A stretch of 41,290 nucleotides of DNA from a virus, in UHGV virus genome UHGV-0387525; one strand, written 5' to 3'. This document shows, piece after piece, positions 14,799-23,498 of this stretch (position 1 is the stretch's first letter; every line of letters begins with the position of its first letter). The notes under the pieces were generated by a model. That model worked only from the letters and a program-made list of their open reading frames with translations. It had not been told where the DNA came from and did not search any database. The position numbers were made by a program, and so were the translations under genes.

Positions 14799-15008
14799 AT
14801 GGGATTTTGGTTCGCTCGTACAAAAACGAGGGATAATGCACCCAGCCCTCAGGCAAAAAATACAGAAGTTCCGGCGTCAGCGCAGGTTAACAAGCGTGGT
14901 GGTGTGTATATCTCATCACAGCAAATTTCTGAGCTTCCTGAGGTTAAGGAGATGCGTCGTCTCGCTGCTGCAATCGTTAAACAGGATCTTGCCACTGTAA
15001 GGAAATAG
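14799..15008 (+). CDS. small hypothetical protein
   Basis: 69 aa; GAGGAGG RBS before ATG 14799. Confidence 0.5.
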   Translation: MGFWFARTKTRDNAPSPQAKNTEVPASAQVNKRGGVYISSQQISELPEVKEMRRLAAAIVKQDLATVRK

Positions 15009-15871
15009 TGTTGTTAGCTCTTCTAATTATCCCCATTCTGGTTAGTGGTTATATTATGATAACCGCTAACCAGTATCATTATTTCCGTTTATACCGACAT
15101 GAAGGCCAGCTTCTTTATATGAAAGTAGCTGCATTAGGTACATATTGCCTTGTTGCTTCTGTAATAATTGCCACATTTATAAAATATAAATATCCTGATT
15201 TTCACCTAGTTCACGATATGGTGGAAACTTTTAATGTAACGTCAAAACCAGAAACAGATAGAATTTACATGTGGCTACTTCTTCTGTCAGTCACATCAAT
15301 TTGCTTCTCTTTGTGTTATGTATCTTTTGTTTGGCTAAAAGATCTTCTTTTAGGTTGTTTTTATAAACGTGATATTTATGACAAAATATCAGAGGCAATG
15401 AAAGCTAGGGTATTGCGAAAAACGTACTCCCAGGGTTCTTTAGATTTGCTATTGCTTGATGCAATCGAATCAGATCCTAAGAAACCAATGTTAATTACTT
15501 TATCATCAAATAAAGTATACGTTGGAATAATAAATGGTTCTGGTGAGCCAACGGAAAATCAAGGGCCACACCAACACATATCTTTTGTTCCTTTAATGTC
15601 AGGGTACAGAAACAAAGAAAATTTATCTGTTACATTTACAAACGCTTACCCAGGTGAAATCCAAATTAAGCGCAGTGCTGCGATAAAAGGGATAAGCAAA
15701 AAGAAAGTTCAAGGTCTAGAAATTATGGTATCTATAGACGAAATAAGTCATATATCATGGTTTGACTTTGAAGTATATAAGGCAACAAATAACAAAGTAG
15801 AAACAAAGGGTCATGTTGTTAATGTGACCAAAAATGGTCGCAACATATACTACAGAAGTGGCAGGAAATAA
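15008..15871 (+). CDS. polytopic membrane protein of unknown function (accessory gene)
   Basis: 287 aa; about three N-terminal TM helices then soluble domain; AT-rich; GTG start overlapping upstream stop, alternative ATG 15056. Confidence 0.5.
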   Translation: MLLALLIIPILVSGYIMITANQYHYFRLYRHEGQLLYMKVAALGTYCLVASVIIATFIKYKYPDFHLVHDMVETFNVTSKPETDRIYMWLLLLSVTSICFSLCYVSFVWLKDLLLGCFYKRDIYDKISEAMKARVLRKTYSQGSLDLLLLDAIESDPKKPMLITLSSNKVYVGIINGSGEPTENQGPHQHISFVPLMSGYRNKENLSVTFTNAYPGEIQIKRSAAIKGISKKKVQGLEIMVSIDEISHISWFDFEVYKATNNKVETKGHVVNVTKNGRNIYYRSGRK

Positions 15872-15895
15872 ATTTTACGCAGTTTAGGTGGCTTA

Positions 15896-16400
15896 TATGG
15901 ATAATACTATCTTAGGCGCATTGATAGGTGCTGTTATTGCTATAGTTTCCACTTATATAAATGCAGGACAAGGATACAAAAACAGCATAAGATTAGAGCG
16001 ACAAAAAATATTAAGGGATAAACGCGAGCAATTATTTATAAATTGTATACTTACTAAAAAAGTCATAGATTCAAGCACAATTACCATTCTCAATTTCGTA
16101 AAAAATGCCAGATACCACTCTGATAGTAAATTTGACGTATCAAGAGCGAATCCGTTGCAAACGATGGAAATGCTAATAAACATATACCTTCCTGAGTATA
16201 AAAAAGACTTACAAGAACTCAATAATGCGTATCAAGAATTTCACAAATACTACTCTCAATATACATGTGCACATACCTTCAAAAATATGCCTGATAATGA
16301 GAAGTCGAGGTTTATTGAGGAGGCTGATTTTTATGCAAAAAAGATATATGGCAAACTTAATGATATTAAGGACAAGATATCATTAAACTCAATAGTATAA
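15896..16400 (+). CDS. single-pass membrane protein of unknown function (accessory gene)
   Basis: N-terminal TM helix ILGALIGAVIAIVSTYI; AGGTGG RBS 5 nt before ATG 15896; AT-rich. Confidence 0.5.
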
Positions 16401-16476
16401 CAGCGATACTGCCGCTGACGGCTCCCGCTGCGGTGGGCGTTCTGCGGATTCCCGCCCGGGTGGCGGTGGCATTCGT

Positions 16477-16507
16477 TAAAAACAAGGCCGCGAAAGCGGC
16501 CTGTTTG
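16477..16507. terminator. bidirectional rho-independent terminator
   Basis: A-run, stem aggccgc/gcggcct with gaaa loop, T-rich tail; between convergent genes. Confidence 0.6.
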
Positions 16508-16508
16508 A

Positions 16509-17360
16509 TCACTGTGCAGTTTTCGCTGATCGATTTTCAGCTCTAAATTCAAGAACCGTTTCAATATTTCTTTCCTTCAGCATATCAATAACATTTTTAT
16601 TCATTTGACTATCACTGGTTAATAACTGGTAAACGTTGCTTCTCTCTTTATCAGAGTTTTCTTTAACAGCTGCTTTGCATGCCAAATGCTTATTGAAATT
16701 TTCTACATCGCTAGTACAGGAATTTACGGCTGCTGATGAAATATCAGACGCTGAAGAAACACCGTCATCCAAACGTTTTATAGCATTTTCTATACATGAG
16801 TTAAGGGAATAAACGACAACTGAGCGATACCCTTCAGACGCACACCATTCTAAATTTCTTGAAGGATCGAGTGGTTTTACTTCGCTGGATTGAATTAACT
16901 TGTCAAAAACTGACTTATATTCAATCTGTTTTTTATCTATAGCCCATACTTCAGTAGCTGATTTATAATTCCCCGTATGCCTATTAACATCAAATCCATG
17001 TTTTATAAGCAAATCTGCCCATGAAAGATTTATTGATTCATTGTTATGAGGCCATTTTCCTGTCAGAACCGCCCCCATAGACCCCATATATCCGCCATAT
17101 GATGGTATAGCACCATGGCTCAGTAACTTCTCTGCAACCACAGGGCAATTAATTACATAAGAGGCGTAAAGCCCATTCCATAAAGCCCCTCTATAGTAAT
17201 CGCCACGATTAGGTTCTTTTAAGTCGATAGCCTTTGATAATTGTTCGCACGTTTTGCATGCATCAAAGTTATCCTTATTGCATTGCAATGAACTGGCAGC
17301 TGTAGGATTTACAGAGACTATTGAAAGCACTATGCCAAAAAACAAATTTATTTTTTTCAT
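16509..17360 (-). CDS. secreted Cys-rich protein of unknown function
   Basis: 283 aa; Sec-type signal peptide MKKINLFFGIVLSIVSVNPTAAS; AT-rich; start 1 nt after the upstream virion gene. Confidence 0.5.
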   Translation of the reverse strand: MKKINLFFGIVLSIVSVNPTAASSLQCNKDNFDACKTCEQLSKAIDLKEPNRGDYYRGALWNGLYASYVINCPVVAEKLLSHGAIPSYGGYMGSMGAVLTGKWPHNNESINLSWADLLIKHGFDVNRHTGNYKSATEVWAIDKKQIEYKSVFDKLIQSSEVKPLDPSRNLEWCASEGYRSVVVYSLNSCIENAIKRLDDGVSSASDISSAAVNSCTSDVENFNKHLACKAAVKENSDKERSNVYQLLTSDSQMNKNVIDMLKERNIETVLEFRAENRSAKTAQ

Positions 17361-17361
17361 C

Positions 17362-20300
17362 CTATTTCATCTGCTCTTCAACTTTATTTAGTAATGGTGA
17401 TATCGCCCACAGATTCTGAAAAGGTAGCATTTTACGGACAGCGTGGGTTTGCTGGCTGTCAAATTCTCCGTTAAGTACACCATTTGCAACCGTCGCGGCA
17501 TCACCGCCAAGATCAAAGGTAGGACCAAGTAAAGCACCAATAGCATTACGACTCTGAAACCTTGATACCGGAGGCGCACCAAACATCGCGCCAAGACCAA
17601 ACCTACCGCCGCTTATGTTCTCAACGGTATTCAGCGGCTCAGAGAGCCAGCCAAGCATTCCGCCCCGGTCGATCCCCTCTTTCACAAGGTTATTCCAGCT
17701 GTAGTCGATATCGCGACCGCTTAACTTCTGTTTCATCATATAGACCATTGAGCCAAGCGCAATCGTGCCAAGCGCACCAAGATAGAATGCAGCATCGCCC
17801 TGCTGGATACCAGATACCAGCACCCTGTTATGCTGTGCGAAGATAAACGTTTTGAACTGCGTGATCATCTTCCAGCCTTCTTTACTAAAAAACAGCGGTG
17901 TATCACCTACGCCAGGCGTTACAATCACTGAGTCTACATCTTTCAGCACTGCAGACTGGAAAATCTCTCTAGCGAAACGGTCATCCCACAGATGACTATG
18001 CCCGGTTAACAGCCCGCCCATATCCTCTCCGTGCTTCCCGAATTGCTCCCCGATTCGGCGCAGAACATCTTCATTGATGCCGACCTGTGCCATCTTCCGC
18101 ATTTCACTTTTGGAGAGCGTGCCACCAGCAGAAACTTGGCGAGCCGCGTCAAGTATCCTCGACTGCACTATCATCCCAGACCATGATTTAAGTGCGCTGT
18201 TCCACTGATTCATCAGCGTCCAGTTACCGAATTTCTGCGTCATCCAGTTCAGACCTCGCTCAGCGGCGCTTCTCCGGCTATAGGGGTCAGTAAGATCCGC
18301 TATAGCCTTTGTACGCGTAGACAGGACATAATCAAGCCCAACTGCCATTTCTCGCAAATCCCTGGTTGCAATTTTCACTGAGTCCATATTTTTAAGCATG
18401 CTTACCATTGGTCCGAGAGATTTTCTCAGGCCATGCTGCATCATCGGTCGCATCAGATCAGTTGCAGCGGAGACAGTCATTCCACCAAGCAAACGGAGGA
18501 AGTTAATATTCCTAGCAACTCGCCCGGCACGAACAAAGAAACTGCGTGGATCTTGAGGTGCACCGTAAGTACCAAGCAGTCGATCACGCATAGCCGTAAT
18601 ATCCCTAATATCAGCCTCCCGTTGCTTCTCAAGAACTGCACGTCGTTTAGGTGTTTTAGCCTCTTTTATTAGCCGGGTATATTCCTCACTAACCTGACGG
18701 ATTTGCTCCCCCATATCTTTACGGCCAAACTGCGCAGTCAGCTCAATTTCTGGTGCCACCTGCCGGAGATAACTTTCCATGATGTAGTTAACATCTGATT
18801 CAAGAAAATCTTCTATACGCTCATCAGGAATAAGCAGCGTTCTGCTTTTAGTGAAACCAGCCCGACCAACGAGTCTCTCTGGGATAATATCGGCTGGTAC
18901 AAGCCCGGAAGGTGCGCCTATTATTTTATTCACGATCTCGTCAGCAGCGTCCTCTGCTTCCTCTCGGGATAGAGGCTCCATCTGCTTCAGTGCTCGCTCG
19001 CGGCTTGCATTCAGCCTTGTGGTTGAATTTGCCCGTTTTTGCAGTCGGCGAAGCTCAGAACGATATTTCCGTGGATTATCCAGCAACTCCATATGGCGCT
19101 GATAGACAGGAAGCTCACTCTTTGCCTGCGCTATATCATCAAGGCGTGTTTTAAGGTCAGAGCTTTCTTTCATCATTCTTGCCTGAAGTTTTTCTGATGA
19201 AGTCTCGGCCAACTCTTTTTCTATTCTTGTAAGACGCGCCTGTGTGTCAGTCTCCTGAGATATAAGCTTATTTCGTTTATCCAGTTCTTCCATGAGTAGA
19301 ATTTTTTTACCAGACCATTTCTCCGCTTCAGCGATTTCACTAGCGAGAGCATCAGCGCGCGGTGCTGATTCCTCTGCAGTTTTTAGCAATGAATTTATCT
19401 TTTCAATTCGCTGACCTGCTTTGTCAGCACCTTTGGCACTAATCCCTTGTATCCAGTTGGCAATTCGCCCTCTGAATTCAGTGCGGTCGGAAAGTATCTT
19501 ATCGAACTTATAAATGCGGGGAAGATAACTCTTCGCCGTCACGACATCGATATCCTCAGGAAGGATCCCCAATTCCTGCATACGGGCTTTTGTGGTCTCA
19601 AAAATGGGGCGGATTCTGGCGGCTGCTTGTGAAACCTCAGGAATATCACTCTGATCACCACGGCGCATAGCCATGCCAACAGCTTCATTGAAATCAATAA
19701 AGTTCATCCTCTTCACGCCGCGGGCGCTGACAGATTTGCTGTACTGCTGGTAAGCATCACGAGTAGCTTCCATCTGCTTATAAAGCATGGCGTCGTATTG
19801 CTTAATCTTAGTCTCGACTGCCGTAAACGTAGCCAACCCCTCATCATTTTTGGCGAAGAAATAGTTATTTTCGGCAAGCTGCTGGTTAATCTGACGGGAG
19901 ACAAGAGATGGTGATTGCGCCAAGCGGCCAGCAGGAGTGACACTCAACGTTTTGTTAGCAAGTCCAAGTCCAGCGAGCTGTTCCTGATCGAGTGTGGTAT
20001 TGAAAACCTGAGCTGCACCAATGCTTTGAGGAGAATCCATACCTCGCAAATGATTACCTACTGAGTTAACCACTGCCTCGCGCGCGCTAGGTCCAGCAAG
20101 TAGCTGTGCACCAGCACCAAGGATCCCACCAACGAGAGCATCAACAACAACGTTCGATACGCTCTCCATCGGTGAGCGAGCTTCCTGAGTGGCCTGTAAT
20201 GCGGCTTCTGATACTCCCCCACCAGCAGCATTCGCCAGGGCAAAACGCCCTGCCGTCTCAGCAATACTTCCTCCACGCGCTACCGCCCCTACAGGGATGA

Positions 20301-20751
20301 ACATTGCAGCCACATTAACCGGGTCTATCATTCCCATTGCTAAGCTTGAAATAGTACCAGCACCACCCATTTCAGATAGATATTCTCTATCTGTTCTTTG
20401 CTTATCGATTCGATGTTTAATTGCCATTGTTTCTTCATGCGAACCGGAGTTGATAAACGAATCTGCAAAATCTTCATAGCCTTTAATATCTGCTGCATCG
20501 TTATCAAATGGGTTATATCCTTCAACCCTGTCAAACTGACTGAAAGGAGCACTGGCAATAAAGCTACCCAGCGTGTTATCTATACGAAATGCTGCTTGTC
20601 TAGACCTTTGAACGCGTTGATCACTGGTAAATGGGTTCACAGCAGAAAGCAAAGAAGGTGTTTCCATATAGAAATTACTGTCATCAGGTGCTGCTATTTG
20701 CTGAATATCCTCGCCAAGCAACTCTTTAGGATCCTGTTCATATATCGGCAT
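17362..20751 (-). CDS. large internal virion/ejection protein (T7 gp16-like by size and position)
   Basis: 1129 aa; Gly/Ala-rich and coiled-coil segments; last gene of virion block. Confidence 0.45.
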   Translation of the reverse strand: MPIYEQDPKELLGEDIQQIAAPDDSNFYMETPSLLSAVNPFTSDQRVQRSRQAAFRIDNTLGSFIASAPFSQFDRVEGYNPFDNDAADIKGYEDFADSFINSGSHEETMAIKHRIDKQRTDREYLSEMGGAGTISSLAMGMIDPVNVAAMFIPVGAVARGGSIAETAGRFALANAAGGGVSEAALQATQEARSPMESVSNVVVDALVGGILGAGAQLLAGPSAREAVVNSVGNHLRGMDSPQSIGAAQVFNTTLDQEQLAGLGLANKTLSVTPAGRLAQSPSLVSRQINQQLAENNYFFAKNDEGLATFTAVETKIKQYDAMLYKQMEATRDAYQQYSKSVSARGVKRMNFIDFNEAVGMAMRRGDQSDIPEVSQAAARIRPIFETTKARMQELGILPEDIDVVTAKSYLPRIYKFDKILSDRTEFRGRIANWIQGISAKGADKAGQRIEKINSLLKTAEESAPRADALASEIAEAEKWSGKKILLMEELDKRNKLISQETDTQARLTRIEKELAETSSEKLQARMMKESSDLKTRLDDIAQAKSELPVYQRHMELLDNPRKYRSELRRLQKRANSTTRLNASRERALKQMEPLSREEAEDAADEIVNKIIGAPSGLVPADIIPERLVGRAGFTKSRTLLIPDERIEDFLESDVNYIMESYLRQVAPEIELTAQFGRKDMGEQIRQVSEEYTRLIKEAKTPKRRAVLEKQREADIRDITAMRDRLLGTYGAPQDPRSFFVRAGRVARNINFLRLLGGMTVSAATDLMRPMMQHGLRKSLGPMVSMLKNMDSVKIATRDLREMAVGLDYVLSTRTKAIADLTDPYSRRSAAERGLNWMTQKFGNWTLMNQWNSALKSWSGMIVQSRILDAARQVSAGGTLSKSEMRKMAQVGINEDVLRRIGEQFGKHGEDMGGLLTGHSHLWDDRFAREIFQSAVLKDVDSVIVTPGVGDTPLFFSKEGWKMITQFKTFIFAQHNRVLVSGIQQGDAAFYLGALGTIALGSMVYMMKQKLSGRDIDYSWNNLVKEGIDRGGMLGWLSEPLNTVENISGGRFGLGAMFGAPPVSRFQSRNAIGALLGPTFDLGGDAATVANGVLNGEFDSQQTHAVRKMLPFQNLWAISPLLNKVEEQMK

Positions 20752-23498
20752 TATTTGCCCCCTGCGTATATATTGCTCGGAAGGTAATTGGCTGAACCAT
20801 AACCGAATGGTTTGGTCAGATCTGGAGGAGTATATCCATCTTTATTGCTGAACTGCGGCAGCGGATTGCCTTCTCTCCGCACTCTAGCCTCATCAACACG
20901 CTGTTGCTGGAACTGAATGGTTTGCCTGTACATTGGAGATGTCAGCTGATCCGGCTTGAAACGAACAGGGAGACCATTTTCTCCAATATAATTTCTCGGT
21001 TCTATCGCTCCGTTTGCGTCAGGCTGTAAAACCATAACAGCATAACTCCTATCCCTTGCCGTAAGGCCATCAGAAACAAGTATTAAGTCCGTATCACTGC
21101 GAGGACCGCCAAAGGATTTTGATTTAAGCTCGCGTTTTTCCTGCTCCCACTGCCCCTGTATCCAGTTACCAGCACCATTATTTACTCCGTACAATGCCTC
21201 AGGTGCATACTTCATAACCTCTGCTTTGCCATTAACTGTAGAAACTCCCCAGGTGGTTCTGATCATGGCATTGGTCATTTTCTCAGCCTGTTCTGCATCG
21301 CCACCTGTCTGTACAAAGTTAGCATCGTAAATTGTCTGGTAATCTCGCTGATAGGCCGCATTTGATTTTCCTGGATCGGTAATATCCGGAGACCACGAAC
21401 CAAAGGAAGTCAGACTGCTGGCGTTATTTTGTGCAGCAGTTGCCCTCGCCGCGACATATTTTTTGTCTCGCATGGCAGTGGAAAGCATCTGTTTCATTCG
21501 GTCATCCTGTTGGAACACCTGGCTGTAAGCCATATCAACAGCCTTATCCTCCGGCACGCCAGCGCGGGAATAATCATAAACCTTGCCGTAAAATGCCATC
21601 GTACTTTTATCAAGTGTTGCCGCTGCCGCCGGATTATTATCGAATAACTGACCGTAGAATTTTGCCATCGGGACAACCAGCGCAGGATCTCTTGATGTTG
21701 CTCCACTGTTAAGCATTGTTTTAACCTGAGTTGGTATCATGCCGCTTTTAGTTGTGACGGTGACCAGTGTATTGATGCTCTGCGGATCAGATATGGAAAA
21801 CGAAGGCGCGATATCCTGCGCGAAATAACGGTCTACCGCTGCCTGATTGTTTTTGTCGTTAGGGTCCAGCGGGAAGTTATTTTGCATTGAAGACACGAAC
21901 CTGTTTCTTCCCTGCTGAATCTCCCACTCCCTATCCATCTCTTTAAATTTGGCCTGCATTTTCTCCCAGCGTTGCTGGTTAGCTGCAAATCCAGGAGCGT
22001 TTGGATCCTGTGGACGTAAACGTTCAAGAATGTCTTGTCGTCCTTCTGGAGTGAGGTCTTTAGCGGCACCAATGACACCTCCATATTGTATCTGCGCCTG
22101 CATATCCTTCCACTTCATAGCGCCAATGCGCGGACCATTGGCCCGGATAAAATCGTCCTCAGAAGGTAACTTCTCAGGTTTCAATCCTTCATCAAGGGCT
22201 GAATATGCATCTTTAACTACGGTGCTAAGCTGGTCCGCATACTGCTGGCGGTACTGATTTCTCAGCTCATTAGCCTGCCTCAATGCCTGTATTTGCATTT
22301 GAGGGCTCATAGCGTCAAATGCCGCATTGCCCGTATAACGCTTAGGTGAATCAAGGTTAGTTAGACCAAGGGCTGCCGAGATACCAGTTTCAAGCTGTTC
22401 GGTGCTATAAGGCATACTGCCATTTTCGTGTTTAATAATCCCAGCACATAAAGCAGCTAGTGTCTTTGGGTTAGAGATATCAAGCTGATCATTCTCCCCA
22501 ACACCAAGCTCACTACACAATGCCCTAATATAAGCATCAGTATTATTACCATCACTAGCCGGAGCATAGCGATTAACAATCTCGCTAACGGTGTCATAGC
22601 CTTGACGCTGGTAAGACAACATATTTTTACCCAACGCGCGGATTCCATGCTCAGGGGTAGCAAACGTTGCAAAACGTCCATCGCTACCGATCTGACCTTC
22701 CCACGGGTTAGATTTGCTCGCTTCAATATTGCCAGGGTTATTATTACGTAAACCACGAGCATCCAATGAATTACCATGTGATATTGCACGACTCACACCA
22801 TCAAGATCCCCTGGCTCTCCATTAACCTGAAGAAACTCGTTGTATTTTTGAGCGATATTTCCTATCCATGCTTGCTGCCCCATTTGTTCCTTGAGCTGAG
22901 TTTTCTGCTGAACACGCCACTCATCAGGAAGCCCATGCGCATCAGCGTATTGATCAATAGATTCAAATCGCTGCTTGGCTAAATCGACAAATGCTTGGTT
23001 ATCGCTATATAGCCCCGCAGACTGAGTGACAGCCAATGCATTTCCTGACAAATACGTTTGATCTTGGAATTGCTGAAACTGCCCAACTTCATATCGACGT
23101 GCCTGATTGTAATAAGACTGCATAGACTGCTGGAGTTGAAAGGATAATTTATTCCTTTCCTCACTTTCAGGAATTGAGCCTAATAATGCCTGAGCCCTTT
23201 CCTGCATATTTTTCATAACAGCGTCACTCTGACCAAGAGCGTTTTTACCCTGTTTAGAAATCAGCCCATTTTCAGGGTTGTTAATCTGGTCATCTGCAAA
23301 TTGGTTAAATTGCAGTAACGCCTCCTGGGCCATAGCAACATTCGCTTTCTGCCTAGCTTCACCATATGCCACCGCATACTGATCTGCGACATTCGCCAGC
23401 ACCTGACCTGCTTGAGGAACATCGAAGGTCTGAAAACCACCGGTTTGCACACCACGACTTTGCACCTGGCGTCCGGATGTAGTAGGAACAACAGGCAT
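20751..23498 (-). CDS. internal virion protein (T7 gp15-like by position), possible muralytic segment
   Basis: 915 aa; segment RGLRNNNPGNI...FATFATPEHGIRALG resembles virion-associated cell-wall hydrolases (unverified). Confidence 0.4.
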   Translation of the reverse strand: MPVVPTTSGRQVQSRGVQTGGFQTFDVPQAGQVLANVADQYAVAYGEARQKANVAMAQEALLQFNQFADDQINNPENGLISKQGKNALGQSDAVMKNMQERAQALLGSIPESEERNKLSFQLQQSMQSYYNQARRYEVGQFQQFQDQTYLSGNALAVTQSAGLYSDNQAFVDLAKQRFESIDQYADAHGLPDEWRVQQKTQLKEQMGQQAWIGNIAQKYNEFLQVNGEPGDLDGVSRAISHGNSLDARGLRNNNPGNIEASKSNPWEGQIGSDGRFATFATPEHGIRALGKNMLSYQRQGYDTVSEIVNRYAPASDGNNTDAYIRALCSELGVGENDQLDISNPKTLAALCAGIIKHENGSMPYSTEQLETGISAALGLTNLDSPKRYTGNAAFDAMSPQMQIQALRQANELRNQYRQQYADQLSTVVKDAYSALDEGLKPEKLPSEDDFIRANGPRIGAMKWKDMQAQIQYGGVIGAAKDLTPEGRQDILERLRPQDPNAPGFAANQQRWEKMQAKFKEMDREWEIQQGRNRFVSSMQNNFPLDPNDKNNQAAVDRYFAQDIAPSFSISDPQSINTLVTVTTKSGMIPTQVKTMLNSGATSRDPALVVPMAKFYGQLFDNNPAAAATLDKSTMAFYGKVYDYSRAGVPEDKAVDMAYSQVFQQDDRMKQMLSTAMRDKKYVAARATAAQNNASSLTSFGSWSPDITDPGKSNAAYQRDYQTIYDANFVQTGGDAEQAEKMTNAMIRTTWGVSTVNGKAEVMKYAPEALYGVNNGAGNWIQGQWEQEKRELKSKSFGGPRSDTDLILVSDGLTARDRSYAVMVLQPDANGAIEPRNYIGENGLPVRFKPDQLTSPMYRQTIQFQQQRVDEARVRREGNPLPQFSNKDGYTPPDLTKPFGYGSANYLPSNIYAGGK

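What the first reader, a model, noticed from the sequence alone, without database searches (positions are those of the whole stretch)
16509..17360. Secreted Cys-rich protein translationally coupled to the end of the virion operon
A 283-aa ORF with a Sec signal peptide (no lipobox) and many cysteines starts 1 nt after the last internal-virion-protein gene and ends at a terminator. It is AT-rich and has repeats loosely resembling ankyrin motifs (LLSHGAIP, LLIKHGFDVNRHTGN). A periplasmic protein made with late genes could be an exclusion factor, host-interaction factor or lysis modulator.
Basis: partly seen in the sequence, partly recalled or inferred. Interest (0 to 1): 0.5.

Follow-up and report, generated by a model that had tools for sequence, protein, structure and literature searches.

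The report
Secreted ankyrin-like prophage accessory protein
A real but uncharacterised gene at the very end of a prophage's DNA-injection gene cluster encodes an exported, disulfide-rich protein built from a divergent ankyrin-repeat domain and a novel helical domain. It is most likely a periplasmic binding or blocking factor, not a part of the virus particle.

Summary
Window 16509-17360 on the MINUS strand is a 283-aa ORF. It starts 1 nt after the stop of the 1129-aa gp16-like internal virion protein gene and ends 6 nt before a GC-rich hairpin with a T-run. Its GC content is 37% against 48% for the neighbouring gene.

It is a genuine gene. It gives a full-length match to PHROG 6118 (function unknown). 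It occurs in 106 of 5426 complete E. coli genomes. Homologues at 40-89% identity sit in the same slot in epsilon15/phiV10-like prophages of Klebsiella, Serratia, Morganella and Providencia. dN/dS between two E. coli alleles is 0.15.

Related phages carry unrelated ORFs in this slot, so it is accessory cargo, not a structural component.

Function is inferred only. My best guess (about 0.3) is a periplasmic binder that blocks incoming ejection proteins, such as the lysozyme-domain protein encoded two genes upstream. That would resemble T4 Spackle or Bdellovibrio Bd3460. Interest is moderate.

The parts
16509..17360 (-). Complete CDS (283 aa plus stop). RefSeq WP_000723561.1 'hypothetical protein'; PHROG 6118.
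17289..17360 (-). Predicted Sec signal peptide (about residues 1-24: MKK, then a hydrophobic core, then NPTAASS). No lipobox. The exact cleavage site is judged by eye.
   Evidence: stand-alone relatives of both domains also begin with signal peptides
16866..17288 (-). N-domain (about residues 25-165). A Cys-rich cap (C27, C35-x2-C38) and C72, followed by about 3 divergent ankyrin-like repeats. The motifs GDYYRGALWNGLY and KWPHxN are invariant within the fused phage family.
16512..16865 (-). C-domain (about residues 166-283). A helical bundle with C173, C189, C215 and C228 and the signature loop LDDG[VI]SxASDI.
17358..17364 (-). Gene junction TAG-G-ATG: stop of the 1129-aa gene, one spacer base, start of the target. 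No sigma70-like promoter lies within 500 nt upstream.
16475..16502 (-). Intrinsic-terminator-like hairpin AGGCCGC-TTTC-GCGGCCT followed by TGTTTTT. It is shared with the convergent plus-strand genes and conserved in phiV10-like phages.
17362..20751 (-). Upstream gene: 1129-aa gp16-like internal virion (ejection) protein (PHROG 342 / DUF919). It is co-inherited with the target across genera.
22302..22760 (-). Lysozyme-fold peptidoglycan-hydrolase domain (residues 247-399) inside the 915-aa internal virion protein (20751-23498). This is the proposed, untested, target class for the secreted protein.

Best explanation
SHOWN. The gene is real and under purifying selection. It encodes a protein with a Sec-type signal peptide followed by two modules. 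The first is an ankyrin-repeat-like domain with 4 invariant Cys. The second is a helical bundle with 4 invariant Cys and a DDG[VI]SxASDI loop. It occupies the last, variable cargo slot of the late/ejection-protein operon of epsilon15/phiV10-like temperate podoviruses of Enterobacterales, between the gp16-like gene and the operon terminator.

INFERRED. After export, DsbA-type oxidation forms two disulfides per domain and yields a stable soluble periplasmic protein. Its ankyrin groove acts as a protein-binding surface. The most likely job is to protect the infected or lysogenic cell envelope against incoming related phages. It would do this by binding a periplasm-exposed component of their ejection machinery. 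A candidate is the lysozyme-fold domain of the 915-aa internal virion protein, or the gp14/15/16-like trans-envelope conduit. This would be a Spackle-like or Bd3460-like inhibitor giving superinfection exclusion or protection from lysis-from-without.

Expression is inferred to ride on the late operon transcript.
For: Anatomy:
- Signal peptide and invariant Cys, with an even number per domain.
- High-confidence model, pLDDT 91.3.

Accessory, not structural:
- Only 1 of 50,697 phage records carries it.
- phiV10 has a 46-aa membrane protein in the slot, and a Klebsiella phage has an unrelated 204-aa ORF there.
- 106 of the 120 E. coli genomes with this gp16-like gene carry it.

Link to the ejection module:
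- The same slot is used at 40-60% identity in Morganella and Serratia, and after 982-, 1131- and 1157-aa internal proteins in IMG/VR contigs.

A periplasm-acting muralytic domain exists two genes upstream (PMC8943055).

Stand-alone C-domain relatives sit in classic exclusion or moron positions. One lies directly after a CI-type repressor. Another lies beside an epsilon15-type tailspike gene.

Precedent: T4 Spackle is a periplasmic phage protein that inhibits the tail lysozyme gp5 (PMC7677548).
Against: No binding or exclusion has been tested; the mechanism rests on analogy.

There is no sequence or fold similarity to Spackle or any other known exclusion protein.

No promoter-like site lies upstream. 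Expression may therefore be late-only, which would protect a lysogen poorly.

dN/dS is 0.15, and the N-domain motifs are invariant. That fits a conserved ligand better than an arms-race interface.

Relatives of the N-domain in Alphaproteobacteria sit next to cytochrome c and NADPH-oxidase genes, not phage genes.

Confidence: 0.3

Rival explanations
1. Secreted host-interaction factor released at phage lysis. The protein accumulates in the periplasm during late gene expression. Like Shiga toxin or the 'Ankyphage' ANKp, it is freed by lysis and acts on eukaryotic cells through its ankyrin domain.
For: Phage-encoded ankyrin proteins with signal peptides have been shown to dampen macrophage responses (10.1101/608950). 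Position in the late operon, Sec export and disulfide stabilisation suit an extracellular life. The carriers are gut or opportunistic Enterobacterales, many from human, chicken or dog isolates.
Against: There is no evidence for any eukaryotic target. Pfam ankyrin signatures are absent. Relatives of both domains occur in free-living marine and environmental Proteobacteria and their prophages. The strict linkage to the ejection-gene cluster is left unexplained.
Confidence: 0.15
2. Lysogenic-conversion factor for periplasmic redox or stress physiology. The ankyrin-like domain chaperones or partners a periplasmic redox protein, as proposed for ankyrin-like partners of catalases.
For: Three stand-alone N-domain homologues in Alphaproteobacteria all lie 5-15 nt downstream of a small cytochrome c gene. 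All are divergent from an EF-hand NADPH-oxidase-type gene and followed by an aldo-keto reductase. The invariant C35-x2-C38 could be a redox-active pair. The gene's persistent AT-richness is typical of horizontally acquired conversion genes.
Against: Those relatives are only about 25-30% identical and lack the C-domain. No promoter for lysogenic expression was found. The phage family never neighbours redox genes. CxxC without a thioredoxin fold is weak evidence.
Confidence: 0.12
3. Lysis or egress modulator. A periplasmic protein that binds the phage's own holin, endolysin or spanin periplasmic domains to time lysis, in the manner of a T4 RI-type antiholin.
For: It is made with late genes and sent to the periplasm, where the lysis proteins act. 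Ankyrin-type inhibitors of cell-wall enzymes exist (PMC4686830).
Against: The lysis cassette (holins, GH19 endolysin, DUF2514) lies about 8 kb away, beyond the tailspike, and it differs between carriers: GH19 in E. coli, Phage_lysozyme in Serratia. The target stays linked to the ejection genes instead.
Confidence: 0.08
4. Genuine virion or ejectosome component whose hydrophobic N-terminus is a membrane-insertion helix and not a cleaved signal peptide.
For: It is co-oriented with the internal virion protein genes, almost abuts them and is conserved in that position across genera.
Against: It is missing from phiV10 and from every phage record except EC.W1-9, and is replaced by unrelated ORFs in relatives. 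The N-terminus has the n/h/c layout with an A-x-A-type site directly before the first invariant Cys in all homologues. Both domains occur alone as signal-peptide proteins outside virion modules. Eight invariant Cys fit oxidative folding.
Confidence: 0.05

Closest known systems
T4 Spackle (gp61.3), periplasmic superinfection-exclusion protein
   Same: Both are phage-encoded, carry a signal peptide, and are small, mostly helical periplasmic proteins. In both phages a virion-borne lysozyme-type domain acts in the periplasm during entry (PMC7677548).
   Different: No sequence or fold similarity was detected. Spackle is an early gene of a lytic myovirus and has about 97 residues in one domain. This protein is a 283-aa two-domain product of a late operon in a temperate podovirus. 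Inhibition was not tested.
Bdellovibrio Bd3460 ankyrin self-protection (immunity) protein
   Different: Identity is only 11%, and many eukaryotic ankyrin proteins score higher. Bd3460 has no Cys-rich cap and no C-terminal helical domain. It is encoded next to its target gene in a predator genome, not in a phage.
'Ankyphage' ANKp, phage-encoded secreted ankyrin proteins
   Same: Both are phage-borne auxiliary genes with an N-terminal signal peptide, no transmembrane domain and ankyrin repeats, and both are argued to be secreted and not virion-borne (10.1101/608950).
   Different: ANKp proteins were found through Pfam ankyrin signatures, which this protein does not match. ANKp has no disulfide-rich cap or second domain. 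Its shown activity is on macrophages; nothing comparable is known here.
Accessory genes in the slot after the ejection-protein genes or at the distal end of late operons (P22 sieA; lambda lom; cor of lambdoid phages)
   Same: The genomic logic is the same: a non-essential envelope-targeted gene sits between the last virion gene and a terminator, differs in base composition and is exchanged as a module. This comparison rests on my own knowledge of those phages.
   Different: SieA is an inner-membrane protein, Lom an outer-membrane beta-barrel and Cor a lipoprotein. This protein is soluble and has no lipobox. No homology to any of them. No own promoter was found.

Membership tests
PHROG 6118 (phage protein family, unknown function) | Full-length match to the family profile | tested here: met
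   E 1.1e-200, residues 1-283 on profile positions 1-283 of 283
Ankyrin-repeat proteins | Stacked helix-turn-helix plus beta-hairpin/loop repeats (fold level) | tested here: met
Ankyrin-repeat proteins | Significant match to Pfam Ank/Ank_2-5 sequence models | tested here: not met
   0 Pfam families at E<=1. The family profile against the PDB gives DARPins only at E 1.2-2.2. One distant relative, P0054, gives Ank at E 0.013, below the cut-off.
Sec-exported soluble periplasmic proteins | Cleavable n/h/c signal peptide, no lipobox, no further transmembrane segment | tested here: inconclusive
   The sequence features are present and conserved, and the only hydrophobic window is at residues 4-25. 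No dedicated predictor or experiment was available.
Bacterial lipoprotein exclusion factors (Cor/Llp type) | Lipobox [LVI][ASTVI][GAS]C at the cleavage site | tested here: not met
   S-L-Q-C27 in E. coli, L-A-K-C in Morganella and A-G-Q-C in Serratia. The residue before Cys is never G, A or S.
T4 Spackle-type exclusion proteins | Homology to Spackle in sequence or fold | tested here: not met
T4 Spackle-type exclusion proteins | Binds and inhibits the virion-borne muralytic enzyme and reduces superinfection | not testable with these tools
   Only the precondition is shown: a lysozyme-fold domain in the 915-aa internal virion protein.
Bd3460-type ankyrin immunity proteins | Ankyrin fold, exported, encoded with the enzyme it neutralises | tested here: inconclusive
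Virion structural / ejection proteins of epsilon15-like phages | Present in all members of the phage group and homologous to known virion proteins | tested here: not met
   Found in 1 of 50,697 phage records. Absent from phiV10. The slot is filled by unrelated ORFs. 14 of 120 E. coli prophages with the same gp16-like gene lack it.
Classical 'moron' (promoter-gene-terminator cassette) | Own promoter upstream and terminator downstream, deviant base composition | tested here: inconclusive
   Terminator and low GC are met. No promoter-like site lies within 500 nt: TTGACA and TAAAAT are 22 nt apart.

The most novel reading that the evidence does not exclude
The first ankyrin-based superinfection-exclusion or immunity protein of a phage. 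A disulfide-stapled periplasmic ankyrin module, fused to a phage-specific DDG[VI]SxASDI helical module, would capture the lysozyme-domain or gp16-like ejection protein of incoming epsilon15-like phages and abort genome delivery. The two domains would define two new exported protein families that prophages use repeatedly as envelope-defence cargo.
Probability: 0.2. Interest if true: 0.65.

Novelty: new member of a known kind. Interest (0 to 1): 0.4.

Why it matters
Temperate podoviruses of the epsilon15/phiV10 type are common prophages in E. coli, Klebsiella and relatives, and about 2% of complete E. coli genomes carry this gene.

If the protein blocks genome delivery, it would be a compact, portable phage-resistance determinant. 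That would matter for phage-therapy host range. It would also be a new structural solution for exclusion: an ankyrin scaffold in the oxidising periplasm.

If it acts on animal cells instead, it would extend the 'Ankyphage' idea to enteric pathogens.

In either case, two exported domain families that are absent from Pfam would gain a first functional handle.

Tried and rejected
- Pfam, NCBIfam and PADLOC scans of the protein gave nothing usable.
- Foldseek against afdb50 was unavailable.
- BFVD gave no phage match.
- The neaT paper surfaced by the literature search concerns a P2-like prophage and is irrelevant.
- An accession search of the literature for WP_000723561 found nothing.
- The partial ORF beside stand-alone C-domain gene P0121 is not related to the 1129-aa protein.
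- The GTDB genome scan for the C-domain found only two loci, one chromosomal and one beside a Prim-Pol gene. This was uninformative.
- A pattern scan with the broad N-domain alignment failed for lack of a conserved stretch. It was repeated with a narrower alignment.
- A lipoprotein reading was rejected because there is no lipobox.
- A heme-binding CxxCH reading was rejected because no His follows C38.
- Positive selection was rejected for the one allele pair tested (dN/dS 0.15).
- Disulfide pairing could not be read because model coordinates are not exposed.

Full report
**The observation.** The window carries a 283-aa ORF at 16509-17360 on the minus strand.
- Read on that strand, the junction is ...ATG AAA TAG G ATG AAA AAA. 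The upstream 1129-aa gene (17362-20751) ends one base before the ATG.
- Six bases after the stop lies the hairpin AGGCCGC-TTTC-GCGGCCT followed by TGTTTTT (16502-16475). This stretch is 94-100% identical to the end of the late operon in phiV10-like phages, where phiV10's annotators marked a terminator.
- The ORF has 37.0% GC and 28.9% GC3. The neighbouring gene has 48.1% and 43.5%. It lies in an AT-rich island spanning about 15000-17400.
- The N-terminus, MKKINLFFGIVLSIVSVNPTAASS|LQC, has the charge, hydrophobic-core and small-residue layout of a Sec signal peptide and lacks a lipobox. It is the only strongly hydrophobic stretch.
- There are eight cysteines, a modest number.

It did not state the strand.

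**It is a real, conserved gene.**
- The protein matches PHROG 6118 (function unknown) end to end at E 1e-200. It has no Pfam, NCBIfam or PADLOC match.
- It is RefSeq WP_000723561.1, 'hypothetical protein'.
- It occurs in 106 of 5426 complete E. coli genomes, always on the chromosome. It occurs in one of 50,697 phage records, Escherichia phage EC.W1-9, and in about 27 IMG/VR contigs.
- Full-length homologues exist in Klebsiella (84-89% identity), Serratia-like genomes (55-61%), and Morganella and Providencia (39-42%).
- All eight cysteines are invariant across 15 of these homologues.
- Two E. coli alleles differ by 20 synonymous and 12 non-synonymous changes. That gives dS 0.12 and dN/dS 0.15, so the gene is under purifying selection.

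**Genomic setting.** The window is an epsilon15/phiV10-like temperate podovirus.
- The tail nozzle protein (823 aa) matches PDB 8ck1_A at E 5e-216.
- Next come a 154-aa protein, a T7 gp14-family core protein (191 aa) and a 915-aa internal virion protein.
- Residues 247-399 of the 915-aa protein are homologous to the lysozyme-fold catalytic domain of the Enc34 endolysin (7q47_A, E 2.8e-15; PMC8943055). They are also homologous to the muralytic N-terminal domain of T7-like gp16 proteins.
- The 1129-aa gp16-like protein follows (PHROG 342), then the target, then the terminator.

The order, roughly 820-830 / 154 / 190 / 916-935 / 1129-1131 / 270-283 aa, recurs in Morganella and Serratia prophages. 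In more distant IMG/VR contigs the preceding internal protein is 982, 1131 or 1157 aa.

The target diverges faster than its neighbour. Against Morganella it is 40% identical where the neighbour is 56%. Against Serratia it is about 60% where the neighbour is 79%. It stays AT-rich in every host: 35.4% against 52% GC in Morganella, and 40.4% against 53.5% in Serratia. The intergenic gap varies: 1, 11 and 31 nt, the last with its own GAGG. Tight coupling is therefore a feature of the E. coli allele only.

**Accessory, not structural.**
- phiV10 has a 46-aa two-helix membrane protein in this slot.
- Klebsiella phage ST512-KPC3phi13.3 has an unrelated 204-aa ORF with no signal peptide there.
- 14 of the 120 E. 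coli genomes that carry the same gp16-like 3' end lack the target.
- In strain MLI109 the target allele is 4% divergent, while the adjoining 2.8 kb of the upstream gene is almost identical. A different gene follows the target there. Together these point to modular exchange at the gene boundary.

**Architecture.** An exhaustive profile search found 68 relatives and showed that the protein is a fusion of two modules.
- The N-module (about residues 5-155) exists alone as secreted proteins of about 160-175 aa.
- The C-module (about residues 160-272) exists alone as secreted proteins of about 110-155 aa, with the signature C..I..LDDG[IV]SxASDIA.AV..C.
- Neither module is in Pfam.
- Among the stand-alone N-module proteins, C35, C38 and C72 are invariant and C27 nearly so. 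C189 and C215 are the conserved pair in the stand-alone C-module proteins. The even, domain-wise conservation suggests two disulfides per domain in the fused protein.

With a 54-sequence alignment AlphaFold gave pLDDT 91.3 and pTM 0.77.
- The leader is disordered.
- A short Cys-rich cap comes next.
- Then a beta-hairpin and three helix pairs.
- The protein ends in a five-helix C-terminal bundle.

**Context of the stand-alone relatives.**
- Three alphaproteobacterial N-module genes all lie just downstream of a small cytochrome c gene. Each is divergent from an EF-hand NADPH-oxidase-type gene and is followed by an aldo-keto reductase.
- Another N-module protein (228 aa) lies in a high-GC viral contig.
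- C-module genes are phage-borne where context exists. One directly follows a CI-type (HTH_3 plus Peptidase_S24) repressor gene. One lies beside an epsilon15-type tailspike gene, near an integrase and a lysis cassette. One lies beside the end of a giant phage protein.
- Two loci from GTDB species-representative genomes (Thauera sinica and a Methylotenera MAG) were uninformative.

**Mechanism (inferred).** The safest statement is that this is a Sec-exported, disulfide-stabilised periplasmic protein whose ankyrin-like groove binds another macromolecule.

I favour, at about 0.3, a role in blocking genome delivery by incoming related phages. Four observations point that way:
- the gene is tied to the ejection module across genera;
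- that module carries a periplasm-acting lysozyme-fold domain;
- C-module relatives occupy repressor-adjacent and tailspike-adjacent cargo sites typical of exclusion genes;
- there are precedents: T4 Spackle inhibits the tail lysozyme gp5 (PMC7677548), and the ankyrin protein Bd3460 inhibits secreted cell-wall endopeptidases (PMC4686830).

Four observations count against it:
- no promoter-like site lies upstream, so expression may be late-only;
- selection is purifying, not diversifying;
- there is no homology to any known exclusion protein;
- nothing has been tested.

The rivals are:
- an ANKp-like secreted host-interaction factor released at lysis (10.1101/608950);
- a periplasmic redox or stress conversion factor, suggested by the cytochrome c neighbourhood of distant relatives;
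- a lysis modulator;
- a true virion component, which is the least likely.

**Novelty and verdict.** A secreted accessory gene at the distal end of a prophage late operon is a familiar kind of object, and secreted phage ankyrin proteins have been described. This is a new, uncharacterised member of that kind. It has an unusual disulfide-stapled, Pfam-invisible ankyrin module fused to a second unclassified exported module. Interest is moderate (0.4). It would rise if the exclusion mechanism were demonstrated.

Noticed in passing
window 15008-16400 (+ strand): An AT-rich (34-38% GC) two-gene cassette, convergent with the target. The first ORF is 287 aa (PHROG 3630, about 3 N-terminal hydrophobic segments). 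The second is 170 aa (PHROG 36918, one N-terminal hydrophobic segment). Neither has a Pfam or PADLOC match. Other prophages carry different genes here, such as DUF2335 and YafO toxin genes, so this is a variable cargo site and the cassette is a possible defence or exclusion candidate.
   Followed up: partly
window 16401-16478 (+ strand): The 3' remnant of a 53-aa secreted Gly/Cys-rich peptide gene (WP_000708858.1; MKKAFAALFVLLSLVASTQAFA|GRCQHDS...). The gene is intact in EC.W1-9 and in E. coli FDAARGOS_497. Here its 5' half has been replaced by the AT-rich cassette. Similarity to the intact locus drops abruptly about 108 nt upstream of the target's stop.
   Followed up: yes
window 20751-23498 (-), residues 247-399: The 915-aa internal virion protein carries an Enc34-type lysozyme-fold domain in the middle of the protein. 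In T7-like gp16 the same domain sits at the N-terminus. The 1129-aa gp16-like protein aligns to PHROG 342 only from profile position 192, so it appears to lack that domain.
   Followed up: partly
L008-L013 (alphaproteobacterial loci): A conserved gene cluster: an EF-hand NADPH-oxidase-type gene (Ferric_reduct/FAD_binding_8/NAD_binding_6), divergent from a small cytochrome c gene, then a secreted N-module (ankyrin-like) protein, then an aldo-keto reductase. This looks like an uncharacterised periplasmic redox module.
   Followed up: no
L054 (E. coli MLI109) against window 16509-20300: A sharp change in divergence at the gene boundary. The target allele has dS 0.12, while the adjoining about 2.8 kb of the upstream gene is nearly identical. 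A 98-aa co-oriented ORF follows the target in place of the terminator. This points to recombination exactly at the slot.
   Followed up: partly
window 15038-15073 (+): A long perfect-looking hairpin (15-bp stem) lies inside the first 25 codons of the 287-aa ORF. The terminator scan flagged it. Its function is unknown.
   Followed up: no
window 17441-17478 (- strand, inside the 3' end of the 1129-aa gene, roughly 80-120 nt upstream of the target ATG): A perfect TTGACA and a TAAAAT are separated by 22 nt. That spacing is too long for a standard sigma70 promoter, but it is the only promoter-like feature upstream of the target.
   Followed up: partly
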